Both the position numbers and the translations under genes were made by a program. Source: Octopus vulgaris (lineage: Eukaryota). Taken from it: DNA of 64,000 nucleotides. The stretch is from assembly GCA_951406725.2 (NCBI GenBank), contig OX597815.1, forward strand, positions 86,738,001 through 86,802,000, given 5' to 3'. The notes under the pieces were generated by a model that saw only the letters and a program-made list of their open reading frames with translations, ran no database searches and was not told where the DNA came from. Shown here piece after piece: positions 20,346 to 25,639 of the stretch; within the stretch, counting starts at the first letter, position 1; each line of letters starts with the position of its first letter.

Positions 20346-21703
20346 ATCCAAAAATCATTCATTTTAATCTATAAATATTGTCAAAATTACTTTTAAATGT
20401 ACAAACACTTTTTACTGATATCGTAAGATCATACTATCATCTTATAATCAAATTACTTTTAAAACAAACTTCAAACTTTATGTTTTGACAGACATTCTCT
20501 AGAACAATACTTCAAAATCAAAAATATGGTTCCCTAGTCATAACACCAATTTTCACTTCTAACTTTCTGTCCACTACTACTATCATAATGTATGTGTACT
20601 CTTAATGTAGAACTTATATGAAAATTGATAAACGTTTTCTGGTAAGATTAATAGTTCGCTTGAGGTCTATTTACACTTGATCCAGGACTACAGCTCATTC
20701 AAAGAGACAAACTGCAGAAAAAAGAGTTTGACAAAAGCCGATGATACCTACTAACCGCCAAGGGGATGCTAGATCATGCCTCAGTACAAGTCTTCACATC
20801 AACAGGGATGCCCAATCCTCCACTCAGTGCAAGTTGATAACAAGTATACCGCCTGAGTAACGGAACGCACTTCTTCCACATAAAGTGGAGGAGCAGCTAC
20901 TCCAGTCCCGTAAGACACGAGCTGGGCAACGCACGATAGCTTTCTCTCGACGAATTTCTGGGTGAGATTGCCCTCGCTGCTCGTCACCTTGTTTCAGTTT
21001 TATACTTGGAGATCTGAAACAAACCCACTTGATAGCACATGCATTATCAACGCACCAATGCAAACTGATTACAATCTTGTGAAGAAGTGACCTGTAAAAC
21101 TTAGGAATTACGACGATGTTCAACTGGAAACATTTAAGAAAATTAAGGAATGTATCTATCACCCCTTTGAAATTAACGTAGCTGGAGTGATACCAAAAAC
21201 TTTCTTGGGATACTGCTGAATAAGATATTAGGATAGACATAGGTAATTTCTAGATAGCAGCAATTCTATGGTCTATACATATTATATTACTAGGACATTC
21301 TTTCACAAAATATACTAAGCTTAAACAAATTTCTTAACGTTGAGCGTTCCCGTTAGCCGTAAACACTCTTTGTAACGCTGAACACTGCAATGCACCTTTT
21401 TTCATTGGCTATATTTCTTAATTTTATACATTTTGGTTAACGATCATCACCATCGTTAACTTTGCACATTATCATATTTATATTTTCTCCAGGATGATCT
21501 GCATTCATGATTCAAGAAGAGAACTCGTGAGTTTTATCTTTCTTTTCTGGAAATCGTGAATAAGGAAATAAAAAATCCTTTTGTTCTTGGCAATAGAGAC
21601 ATCACAAATACATACAAAGAGTTGTAAACAAAATAATTACAAATACATTCGAATATACATTATTTACATTTGACGGATATTTGTCCTCGTCTTGTTTGTT
21701 GTT

Positions 21704-21750
21704 AACACAACGTTTCGGCTGATATACCCTCCAGCCTTCATCAGTTGTCT
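21704..21750 (-). ncRNA. Minimal Penelope-type type I hammerhead ribozyme with intact core
   Basis: Minus strand AGACAA-CUGAUGA-A-GGCUG-GAGGGUAUAU-CAGCC-GAAA-CGUU-GUGUU: perfect 5-bp stem II, palindromic ACGU stem III, GUU triplet. The sister copy at 25267-25312 has GACAC 5' (pairs GUGUU) but a mutated core (CUGAUUU). Confidence 0.75.
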
Positions 21751-21839
21751 TGGGGAAATTTCGAACCTGGGTTCTTATTCCTAAGGTGTTTTTCCAAGTT
21801 GTCGTTGCTGTTGTTATTATTATTATTATTATTATTATT

Positions 21840-24800
21840 TTCAGTAGTTTTATTTTTATAACGTGCTTTCACTTCACTACCGAGCGCAGCTCTGTGTACC
21901 TTGGGTATGTGCTATGATTTGTTGTGATGCTCTGATGGTTATTGTATGGAAAGTGTTCTGCGTAGGATGTGTGCAGTGCCTAGTAGTGCAATTTTCTGTG
22001 TTATATGTGTTTGTAAGTCCTGGTGTTTTTGTTATGTATTTGTCTGAATATTTTTTTATCATGCCTAATGCACCTACTATGATAGGAATTGTTTCTGTTT
22101 TTAGATTCCACATTCTGGTTACCTCTATTTCCAGGTCTTTGTATTTTGAAACTTTCTCCATTTCTTTTAGAGACACGATGTCATCTGCCGGTATTGATAC
22201 ATCAATTAGAAAGCATTTTTTTTCTTCATGATCTCTGACAACTATATCTGGCCTGTTGGCCTTAATTTCTCTATCTGTGTGTATCGGCATATCCCAGAGT
22301 ATGGTTGCTTTCTCGTTTTCTGTGACCTTTTCTGGTGTGTGCCTATACCATCTTTTTTCTGTTGTTATTCCATAATGTTGGCATAGCTTCCAGTGTATGT
22401 AGGTTCTAACTCTGTCATGTCTGTGAATATATTCCTTCTTAGCCAGGACTGGGCAGCTAGAGATAATATGATTTATTGTTTCTTGTCCATCTCCACATAT
22501 TCTGCAGTTACTTGTTATATTTCTTTTCATTACATGTTTTTGGTAATTTCTGGTGGGGAGGCTTTGGTCTTTTGCTGCAATTAAAAATCTCTCTGTCTCT
22601 GCTTTGAGTCCTGAGCTTCTCAACCACTGCTGGGATTTTTCTTTGTCTATTTCTTTTGCGTTTAGTTTAGTCCAGTAAGGGGCTTTTCTTGCCATCGTTT
22701 TATCATGGTTCGTTGCTGTTCTATTATTAGTTTGGATTTCATTTGTTTTATAGCTTTTGTTGTTTCTTTATCTTCTTCTTCTTCTTCTTCTTCTTCTTCA
22801 TATTTATTAGGTGGTATGATTTCTTGTTTGTATTTGTCAGCTTCCTTAAATACTGAGAAGTTTTTTTTGTTTTGCTCGTGTTTTGCCGCTATTTGTATCA
22901 GTTTTCCTTCCTTCTGAAGTAGATATTTTTGCAGTCCTATGGTGGTTATTTTATAGTAGTTTTCCAGCTGTATAAGGCCTCTACCACCTTCTATACGTTG
23001 TATATATCGTCTTTCTATGTCAGATTCTGGAGGATGCATCCTAGATCCTGTCATTATTTTTCTTGTTTTCCTATCTATTTTGGTCAGTTCATTTAGTGTC
23101 CAGTTATGGATATTGTAGCTATAACTTATAACTGGGACAGCTAAAGTGTTAATACCTATTATCTTGTTTTTAGCATTGAGCTCTGTTTTTAGTATTGATC
23201 TAACTCGTCTATAGTATTCTTTTTTTTTTTATTTTCTCTTTCATTTGTGTGTGTTGTGTCTTATCTAGTTCATGGATTCCTAAGTATTTGTAAGTTTGGC
23301 TTTGGTCTAATTCTTTTATTTCATTGGTTTTATCTAGTGTGGTGTTGCTACTCTTAACTAGTTTTCCTCTTTTCATGGTTACTTTGGCGCATTTTTCTAA
23401 TCCAAATTTCATATCTATTTCTTTGGTAAATCCATTAACTGTCTTTAATAGCGTTTCCAGCTGTTTGTCATTTGCAGCGTATTGTTTTAGGTCATTCATA
23501 TATAAAATGTGGCTGATCGTTTTGCCGTAACATTTATATCCGCATCCAGTTCTATTTAGCATATCAGATAGAGGTGACAGTGCCAAGCAGAAAAGGAGTG
23601 GGGAGAGCGTGTCTACCTGGAATATTCCTCTTCTAATGGGGATGGCTTTGGTTTTCATGAGTCCCTCTTTTGTTTGGAGCTGTAGCACTGTTTGCCCTTT
23701 ATTCATAGAGAGCCCTATGAATTTTATAATTGTTGGTGCTTCTTTGTTAATGGCTAGTGTTTCGAGGATCCATATGTGGGGGATGCTATCAAACGCCTTT
23801 TTGTAGTCGATCCATGCCATACTGAGGCCTTTCTTCTTTCTGTGGCTGTCTTCAGTTATGGCTTTTATTAATTATTAGTTGATCTTTACAGCCATATGAG
23901 CCTTTGCGGCATCCTTTCTGCTCTTCTAGAAACAAGGTTGTTTTCATCCAGGTGCTTGTTCAACCTTTGTGATATCACTGCAGTAAATGCCTTGTACATT
24001 GTAGGGAGACAGGTTATTGGTCTGTAGTTTTCTGGTTTTGCTGTCTCATTTGATTTGGGAATTAAGATAGTTTTCTCCTTCGTGAGCCATTCAGGCATTG
24101 TCTCTGGCTCTGCTAGTATGTTGTTAAAGTTTTCAGCCAGCTTTTTGTGCATTCCTGTTAGATATTTCAACCAGAAGTTGGGGATCTTGTCATGCCCAGG
24201 TGCCTTCCAGTTGCTTAGTTTTTGCAGTGCCTGGGTGACCTCTTCAGTTGTTATGGGGGTCAAAAGTTGTTCAGATGCCGAGTTTGTTATTTTGATACTC
24301 CTTTTTTTGGCTGTTCGTTCGCCGACCATATTTCTCTCCAGAATTCTTCCAATTCTTCTGCCGTTAGTGCTGCAGTGATTTCTATTTTATTTTTGCCAAG
24401 TTCTTGGTAGAACTTTTGGGGATTGGAGATGAACTTTTTGTTTTGTTCAAAGAAGCGCTGGCGTTTCTCATACCGGCGGATCCTTTGTGCTTTGGCAAGG
24501 ATATCTTGCTTCAGCTTTTCTTTTATCTCAGGTAAATCTTTTTCTGTGATGTTATATATGCGGAGTATTTTTGTTTTCTTTTTGTTGCTCAGTAGCGTTG
24601 ATTGTCTACTGATTTCATTAAGAATCGACAGATCTTTTCTCATTTTTTAAATTTTGTTTTGGATGTTATTTATCCACAGGGTTTGTTTGGGTGGTGGTAC
24701 TCCTGTTTGGATGGGTTTGAGTGAGTATCCAACTTCTTTTGTGGCTGCAGTGGCGGCTGCGTATACTAAGTCATTTAGCTTAGTGATATCGCTTTTTGTT

Positions 24801-24958
24801 TCAGTGGCTATTAATTCCGTGACGACTAGGTTTATGCTGTTTATAATTGGTGTTGTTGTTTCGTCTATTTTGATTTTTGGGAGGTATGGTCGGTGGTCCA
24901 TTTTGAGCTCTGTGGTTTTCAGTTCTTTGACTATTTTACTTTTTATATTATCATAATA
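21840..24958 (-). mobile_element. R4/Dong-clade non-LTR retrotransposon (RT-CCHC-RLE), 5'-truncated and frameshifted
   Basis: ORF pieces NWKAPGHDKIPNFWLK, NYRPITCLPTMYK, WIDYKKAFDSIPH, RRGIFQVDTLSPLLF, HILYMNDLK (YMDD mutated), KYLG, CRICGDGQETINHIISSC, RHD, PDIVVRD...LIDVSIP...KVSKY (PD-D/ExK). Flanked on both sides by (TAA)n, the known Dong target. Confidence 0.95.
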
Positions 24959-24972
24959 TATTATTATTATTA

Positions 24973-25028
<56 letters not shown>

Positions 25029-25030
<2 letters not shown>

Positions 25031-25168
25031 AGTGACTGCCTGGAATCGAACTCGGAATCTTGGGATTAGTAGCCTGCGCTCTTAACCACTATGCTATATG
25101 CCCGTAGTGGTTAAGAGCGCGGGCTAGTAACCCCAAGATTCCGAGTTCGATTCCAGGCAGTGACCTGA
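25029..25168. other. Head-to-head pair of tRNA-Thr(AGU)-like Pol III heads
   Basis: Minus: GGGCATATAGCATAGTGGTTAAGAGCGCAGGCTACTAATCCCAAGATTCCGAGTTCGATTCC. Plus from 25104: GTAGTGGTTAAGAGCGCGGGCTAGTAACCCCAAGATTCCGAGTTCGATTCCAGGCAGTGACC. A box TAGTGG, B box GTTCGATTCC, loop CTAGTAA. Confidence 0.8.
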
Positions 25169-25173
25169 ATAAC

Positions 25174-25209
<36 letters not shown>

Positions 25210-25639
25210 AACAACAACATCAAAAAATACCATAGGAATGAGAATCCAGGTTCGAAATTTCCCCAAGACACCTGATTTATGCTGGAGGGTATATCAGCCG
25301 AAACGTTTTGTTAACAAACAAGATGAGAACAAATATCCGTCAAATGTAAATTATGTACATAATTCCTCATCTCTTGAATATAGAACTACATTCGAATATA
25401 ATATGCAATAAACAGGAGAGTGTAAGAAATTCATACAACTACGGTCGAATGAAAAATTGATATAGAATGCCATTTACACCCCTCACGAATCGGTACAAAG
25501 TTTCAGCTATGTAAGGATGAGAGAACCTCAAATTCCTGGCTACCTTTTCAAAAACAGGCAAAAAAAATACTAAAACTCTAAGAAAATTGAATCCAACAGC
25601 AGAAAAAGAAAAGTATATATTTTGTTGATAGTCCAAATA

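What the first reader, a model, noticed from the sequence alone, without database searches (positions are those of the whole stretch)
21644..25400. Candidate new retro-system: tRNA-promoter + hammerhead-ribozyme SINE inserted as a Penelope-style inverted dimer
Seen: a perfect 14-bp direct repeat (TACATTCGAATATA) brackets two head-to-head copies of one ~280-nt unit. The unit is a tRNA-Thr(AGU)-like head with A/B boxes, then (AAT/GAT)n, then a body with a minimal type I hammerhead (CUGAUGA-A-GGCUG/CAGCC-GAAA-CGUU, consensus stem I GACAC/GUGUU), then an A-rich end. The arms are asymmetric: the right arm has ~28 extra 3' nt and lacks ~11 nt of the tRNA 5' end. Established: minimal hammerheads with a palindromic stem III, and inverted pseudo-LTRs with a short extra tail, are hallmarks of Penelope-like elements, whereas classical SINEs borrow LINE tails and insert as single units. 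Inference: a Pol III-driven, self-cleaving non-autonomous element mobilised by Penelope RT/GIY-YIG. I do not know a description of this combination in cephalopods, but I cannot search databases.
Basis: partly seen in the sequence, partly recalled or inferred. Interest (0 to 1): 0.88.

Follow-up and report, generated by a model that had tools for sequence, protein, structure and literature searches.

The report
Penelope retrotransposon with tRNA-derived promoter
This is a head-to-head pair of end repeats from an abundant Penelope-type jumping gene whose repeat starts with a tRNA-derived promoter-like head and contains a hammerhead ribozyme motif; the head likely lets the element make short SINE-like RNAs that its own enzyme would copy, and one arm was later split by an unrelated 3-kb retrotransposon.

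Summary
The duplication, inverted arms, tail asymmetry, A/B boxes and minimal hammerhead are real. The unit is not a separate SINE family. It is the pseudo-LTR of an autonomous Penelope/Poseidon-type element in the same genome: it follows the ORF end in 25 of 30 loci and precedes the ORF start in 22 of 30. Inverted, tail-less partner arms are typical (56 of 90 loci; 41 of 56 with target duplications, 3% in controls), as is known for Penelopes. The unusual part is the tRNA-derived head inside the pLTR. Of 66 arms reaching it, 48 end within 18 nt of its start, and heads outnumber the sequence just upstream about tenfold, which suggests a Pol III start there. The 2.3-kb ORF also has no shared T4 terminator (P about 0.03-0.05). 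No diagnostic site separates short from ORF-linked copies. RNA reads from a related organism show A>G/T>C excess of 6-23%, likely ADAR editing of the fold-back. Pol III use and cleavage are untested. Verdict: new variant of a known kind.

The parts
21644..21657 (+). Left target-site duplication (14 bp; last bases overlap element-like sequence)
   Evidence: such duplications in 41 of 56 inverted loci vs 2.9% control
21658..21806 (-). Left arm pLTR body, tail-less (5' coding end of the PLE ORF in other copies)
   Evidence: 87% to right arm
21704..21749 (-). Minimal type I hammerhead motif, intact core, one stem I mismatch
   Evidence: sequence; column conservation; no Rfam match
21807..21840 (-). 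(AAT/AAC)n spacer, downstream part
21841..24945 (-). Later insertion: broken, probably 5'-truncated Dong/R4-type LINE (RT, CCHC, restriction-like endonuclease motif) in the AAT run
   Evidence: 97-99% to other copies; Dong targets TAA
24946..25027 (-). (AAT)n spacer, upstream part (Dong target)
25028..25103 (-). Left tRNA-derived head, complete: box A 25086-25096, box B 25043-25051
25104..25168 (+). Right tRNA-derived head lacking first 11 nt; box B 25145-25153
25169..25215 (+). (GAT)n spacer
25216..25359 (+). Right arm pLTR body; ORF start codon region 25235-25247
25267..25312 (+). Hammerhead motif with mutated core and stem I (likely dead)
25360..25386 (+). PLE tail, present on one arm only
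   Evidence: partner arms end 23-34 nt short in 51 of 56 loci
25387..25400 (+). Right target-site duplication

Best explanation
The locus is an inverted, ORF-less insertion of a Penelope/Poseidon-type retrotransposon whose pseudo-LTR consists of a tRNA-derived A/B-box head, an AAT run, a hammerhead-bearing body and a tail; the head likely acts as an internal Pol III promoter, so pLTR copies would yield short RNAs that the element's own RT/GIY-YIG protein would insert as head-to-head pairs. Shown: pLTR-ORF-pLTR anatomy, inverted arms, tail, duplications, 5' end pile-up, later Dong insertion. Inferred: transcription starts about 7 nt upstream of the tRNA-like +1; the endonuclease makes a staggered cut (8-14 bp duplication); RT starts at the fixed tail end; the cDNA runs off at the RNA 5' end and either folds back on the TGCCC/GGGCA repeat or joins a second cDNA started about 25-30 nt inside the tail. 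Most templates are uncleaved or re-ligated at the hammerhead. Introns carrying such pairs likely fold into dsRNA that ADAR edits.
For: Head follows the ORF end in 25 of 30 loci, query included; body/tail precedes the ORF start in 22 of 30; full copy L094; RT match and 54-69% identity to RT/GIY-type proteins; ORF opens in the pLTR and the hammerhead-coded peptide aligns with homolog P0005 (47%, E 6e-22). 56 of 90 tail-anchored loci have an inverted arm, 41 of 56 a duplication. Stop rate per nt: 0.0076 inside head, 0.072 at +10..-7 (48 of 66), 0.0029 just upstream (2 of 18). Exact 20-mers: 865 upstream vs 5148 in head; corrected for retention (35 of 84, 46 of 182) about 2,100 vs 20,400. Boxes A and B are canonical. 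No shared T4 run from ORF start to head (0 of 12 T runs), versus 3 in Dong and 6 in another PLE frame of equal T content. The one subfamily-variable hammerhead core site is the free position 7 (T 70%, A 26%).
Against: No direct test of Pol III or cleavage. A native 10-bp hairpin overlaps the head start, and exact palindromic junctions centred on its loop are common (31 loci vs 38 native among the first 100 rows; 12 of the 48 stops), so RT pausing or fold-back can explain part of the pile-up. No SINE subfamily: no diagnostic site, divergence 5.9% vs 6.7%. T4 absence is modest (P 0.046; codon shuffles expect 1.9+0.7) and G4 runs are absent too. RNA reads show no strand bias and no start or end pile-up. 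Over 90% of arms cross the cleavage site; the excess of ends there is weak. The tail-anchored sample is biased to copies with an exact tail.
Confidence: 0.62

Rival explanations
1. Ordinary 5'-truncated Penelope copies: all arms come from long Pol II or read-through (possibly circular) RNA; the tRNA head is a passenger, and the pile-up comes from RT stalling and snapping back at the hairpin at the head start.
For: Native hairpin; palindromic junctions keep its loop; arms of one locus share derived sites above chance (19 vs about 8); no subfamily split; dual hammerheads 100-700 bp apart on opposite strands were already read as truncated PLEs (PMC4209133); some arms span ORF end, head, body and ORF start (L184, L191).
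Against: 36 of 48 ends in the window are not palindromic junctions; ends lie within and just beyond the hairpin, not at its 3' foot; fold-backs use the 5-bp inner stem, as expected if cDNA ends near -7, and only 1 of 86 arms ended at -14 where the fuller stem would prime; T4 absence is unexplained.
Confidence: 0.28
2. A true separate SINE: an independently replicating non-autonomous lineage that borrows the PLE machinery.
For: Heads outnumber ORF ends five- to tenfold; SINE-like 5' ends; non-autonomous PLE derivatives are known.
Against: The full unit including the head is in the autonomous element; variant sites have like frequencies in 54 ORF-linked and 89 short units.
Confidence: 0.08
3. 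The Dong/R4 LINE inside the left arm is the autonomous partner and the body is its 3' end.
For: Dong 3' ends sit upstream of the body here and in L018, L029.
Against: All 30 Dong 3' ends run into (AAT)n and only 3 of 30, this locus included, continue into the body; Dong copies are 97-99% alike, pLTRs 87-94%; Dong targets TAA repeats.
Confidence: 0.01

Closest known systems
Penelope/Poseidon PLEs (Penelope of Drosophila virilis, Xena/Poseidon, Cercyon of Schistosoma mansoni)
   Same: RT plus C-terminal GIY-YIG-type domain, partial tandem pLTRs, inverted 5'-truncated copy, one-sided tail, minimal type I hammerhead with extra base before stem II and palindromic helix III (PMC8557442, PMC4209133, PMC2377424).
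   Different: [quoted passage not shown] Here a tRNA-derived A/B-box head occupies the pLTR and most copies start at it; tail 24-32 nt rather than 30-40.
Schistosome SINE-like hammerhead repeats (Sm-alpha/Sj-alpha; names partly recalled)
   Same: Pol III-type promoter followed by a hammerhead (review PMC6765202, passages).
   Different: Described as tandem repeats cut to monomers, with no PLE ORF link in the passages read; here dispersed inverted pairs and part of a coding element. The primary paper was not held.
Non-LTR retrozymes and non-autonomous Chlamys (MRC1)
   Same: Short pLTR-related, hammerhead-bearing or pLTR-forming elements tied to PLEs (bioRxiv 10.64898/2026.07.22.740005).
   Different: Tandem direct arrays; retrozymes are said to lack promoters (PMC7761336).
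TRIMp3: Cassandra, Helenus, Ajax
   Same: Small-RNA-derived Pol III promoter inside a terminal repeat (PMC10886601).
   Different: Non-autonomous LTR elements; that paper argues autonomous partners must use Pol II and share little repeat sequence. Here the autonomous element itself carries the head.
Octopus tRNA SINEs OK, OR1, OR2 (Ohshima and Okada 1994)
   Same: tRNA-derived heads in octopus (title only; not held).
   Different: OR1/OR2 are cited as CORE-SINEs; this body is PLE coding sequence. Identity with OK could not be checked.

Membership tests
Penelope-like element (EN+, Penelope/Poseidon) | Single ORF with RT | tested here: met
   RVT_1 E 5.8e-8, above cut-off; DKG, GLPKIHK, RYVDD motifs
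Penelope-like element (EN+, Penelope/Poseidon) | C-terminal GIY-YIG endonuclease with CCHH | tested here: met
   Aligns column by column with PF01541-annotated P0015; motif reads Y..G with K for I. Pfam itself gave no GIY-YIG hit on the copies.
Penelope-like element (EN+, Penelope/Poseidon) | Partial tandem pLTRs, inverted 5'-truncated copy, one-sided tail | tested here: met
Penelope-like element (EN+, Penelope/Poseidon) | Minimal type I hammerhead in the pLTR | tested here: met
   Motif by sequence; Rfam silent; activity untested
Penelope-like element (EN+, Penelope/Poseidon) | No extra zinc finger between RT and EN (vs Neptune/Nematis); clade by tree | tested here: inconclusive
   No cysteine cluster in the linker, unlike L381; no tree with named references was built
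tRNA SINE | tRNA-derived head with boxes A and B at the 5' end | tested here: met
tRNA SINE | Independent non-autonomous family distinct from its partner | tested here: not met
   Whole unit lies in the autonomous element; no diagnostic site
tRNA SINE | LINE-derived or simple-repeat 3' tail, single-unit insertion | tested here: not met
   Fixed PLE tail; 56 of 90 inverted
tRNA SINE | Pol III transcription | not testable with these tools
   Indirect support only
Non-LTR retrozyme | Tandem direct arrays with circular RNA | tested here: not met
   Mostly single or inverted copies; circles not testable
Dong/R4 LINE (insert) | RT, CCHC, restriction-like endonuclease, TAA target | tested here: met
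   endonuclease motif and clade name read from sequence and recalled, no tree

The most novel reading that the evidence does not exclude
The whole protein-coding retrotransposon is a Pol III transcription unit: a captured tRNA promoter in the pLTR drives both the 2.6-kb genomic RNA (kept free of T4 terminators) and a SINE-like short RNA from every stray pLTR, so one element is its own LINE and SINE, and its fold-back insertions seeded thousands of Alu-like ADAR substrates.
Probability: 0.3. Interest if true: 0.85.

Novelty: new variant of a known kind. Interest (0 to 1): 0.62.

Why it matters
It joins two categories usually kept apart, tRNA SINEs and autonomous Penelope elements, and runs against the stated expectation that autonomous partners of Pol III elements use Pol II (PMC10886601). 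Tens of thousands of copies with fixed ends, duplications and fold-back junctions give an unusually large record for testing how PLEs make inverted insertions and tails, which is still open. It suggests that some repeats labelled SINE in cephalopods are PLE pLTRs and that Smα-type repeats may have a similar origin. Born-inverted pairs are ready-made dsRNA, and reads on them look heavily edited, offering one concrete source for the high dsRNA and hyper-editing reported in octopus (PMC5625713).

Tried and rejected
Dong as partner: rejected. Thr(AGU) origin: not supported; isotype unresolved because only 30 tRNA loci of a few isotypes were compared. Rfam and ARAGORN: no call (3, 4); the mir-3160 hit is only the head-to-head hairpin. 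Folding single heads or hammerheads: no significant z-scores. Stem II covariation: not testable, one master lineage; searches with distant PLE proteins returned the same family in all 30 loci cut. SINE subfamily: none. RNA start, end or strand signal: none; no RNA holder on record was listed. Ends at the hammerhead cut site: 15 of 277 arms at positions 90-102 vs 13 of 262 at 64-89, but no higher than positions 25-63; inconclusive. Scan findings: two look-ups, nothing. Paper searches listed no description of a tRNA-headed PLE pLTR; three relevant papers were not held; Repbase, Dfam and SINEBase could not be searched; the supplement of PMC13282606 held no sequences; bioRxiv supplements were not seen. 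Prior library annotation is therefore not excluded.
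Full report
Observation. The 14-bp repeat is unique in the window. Between its copies lie a tail-less body (21658-21806, minus), an AAT run split by 3.1 kb, a complete tRNA-like head (25028-25103, minus), then a head lacking 11 nt, a GAT run, a body and a 27-nt tail on plus. 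The 3.1 kb encode a broken RT and zinc-knuckle protein with a restriction-like endonuclease motif. All 30 best copies of its 3' end run into (AAT)n and only 3, this one included, continue into the body; Dong elements target TAA repeats (PMC3812793, passages) and Dong-R4 is recently active in Octopus vulgaris (PMC13282606, part 1 and passages). It is a later insertion. The host is a 2.8-Gb, 227-contig genome; octopus is my inference, not a tool result.

The autonomous element. One of 30 best body matches (L004) had RT and GIY-YIG-type frames directly upstream of the head. Searching with that end gave 30 loci: head follows in 25, head or body in 28. Searching with the ORF start gave 30 loci: body or tail precedes it in 22. 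L094 is a full copy: inverted body, partial pLTR with tail, ORF, head, body, tail. The frame opens inside the pLTR, so the hammerhead is coding; this N-terminus aligns with an outside homolog at 47%. Homologs at 27-69% carry RT domains and one carries GIY-YIG; Pfam did not call GIY-YIG on the copies themselves. This is the anatomy described for PLEs (PMC8557442 passages; PMC2377424 abstract and introduction; PMC4209133 parts 1-2 of 4).

Insertion form. The exact tail 31-mer occurs 3054 times, the hammerhead 44-mer 951 times; 750 kb of arbitrary tiles held 10 clusters. I took the first 90 tail matches on contig 1. 56 have an inverted upstream arm, 51 of which end 23-34 nt short of the tail end; 41 of 56 have a duplication score of 8 or more against 2.9% in shuffled pairs, 7 of 34 in the rest. 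Arms vary from 45 nt to over 1.6 kb with ORF. In 54 loci paired arms share 19 derived non-CpG sites against about 8 expected, fitting one template or one subfamily.

The head. Boxes A and B are canonical, the T stem is broken, the majority anticodon is ACT; closest of 30 host tRNA loci is Arg by a small margin. Among 86 arms with a head, 20 stop inside it, 48 of 66 stop between +10 and -7, 2 of 18 in the next 40 nt (12 palindromic junctions were assigned to the start window). Genome-wide 20-mer counts give about 20,400 heads and 2,100 upstream segments; the sample suggests fivefold and the tiles (3 of 8 heads ORF-linked) less. A start near -7 lies about 15 nt before box A, as expected for Pol III (established knowledge). 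The rival is a hairpin at the same place: 31 palindromic loci against 38 native ones among the first 100 rows. But most ends are not palindromic, and fold-back on the inner five pairs is what a cDNA ending near -7 would do. Across 117 aligned pieces the sense strand has 12 shared T3 runs and no T4 (P 0.046), 0.36 T4 per kb against 1.97 expected; Dong has 3 shared and another PLE frame 6. Codon shuffles expect 1.9 and 0.7 in two non-overlapping frames with none seen. G4 is also absent, so this is suggestive only. Short (89) and ORF-linked (54) units share all variants, so there is no separate SINE.

Hammerhead. Core, extra base before stem II, five-pair stems and palindromic helix III match the published minimal motif. 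The only polymorphic core site is position 7. Over 90% of arms cross the cut site and enrichment of ends there is weak. Activity is untested; such motifs cleave poorly and as dimers.

RNA. Three raw RNA runs of a related organism cover ORF end, head and body without strand bias or end pile-ups. On a near-majority copy they show A>G at 19-23 and T>C at 12-13 places at 5% or more, against 2 and 2 in a contig run of unrecorded type that looks genomic, and 1 and 0 in own-genome copies; the 20 sites I tabulated from the 40 rows shown are 6-23% in RNA and 0-4% in DNA, 1 of 20 with a 5' G. Dimers fold with about 85% paired. This fits ADAR editing, but RNA and DNA are not from one animal or species label. 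Octopus is reported as exceptionally rich in dsRNA and hyper-editing, and lizard Penelope as heavily edited (PMC5625713, passages).

Comparison and verdict. Inverted hammerhead pairs from truncated PLEs, retrozymes as PLE derivatives (bioRxiv 10.64898/2026.07.22.740005, parts 1-3 of 5), Pol III plus hammerhead in schistosomes (PMC6765202, passages) and tRNA promoters in non-autonomous LTRs (PMC10886601, passages) are known. Eight searches listed no tRNA-headed pLTR of an autonomous PLE; key older papers and repeat databases were out of reach. PLE identity is near certain (0.97); Pol III-started short RNA 0.62; whole element on Pol III 0.3, with uncapped translation as the open difficulty. New variant of a known kind, interest 0.62.

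Noticed in passing
L007:1503-1640 with runs X21-X23: Strong A>G and T>C excess in RNA reads over DNA, likely ADAR editing of fold-back pairs; no tail position was among the 40 rows shown.
   Followed up: partly
window 21493-21527: Looks like a small exon (pyrimidine tract and AG before, GTGAGT after) 117 bp upstream of the insertion, so the element may be intronic.
   Followed up: no
   Followed up: partly
L018, L029, L052, L054, L020: Dong-type LINEs repeatedly land in the pLTR's AAT run: one element supplies targets for another.
   Followed up: partly
pLTR body positions 90-95: About 16% of arms carry small deletions at the hammerhead cut site, discordant between paired arms (16 of 17), so a post-insertion hot spot.
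   Followed up: partly
L172, L174, L186, L191, L196-L198: Internally deleted copies joining the ORF start or middle to the 3' pLTR, each with its own junction.
   Followed up: no
L381:844-3258: A second PLE family with long open frames, a cysteine-rich linker and GIY-YIG hit (Neptune-like); no tRNA head looked for.
   Followed up: partly
G000:C2:16238319-16238941: Four native ORF-end/head junctions 150-300 bp apart, perhaps a local tandem array.
   Followed up: no
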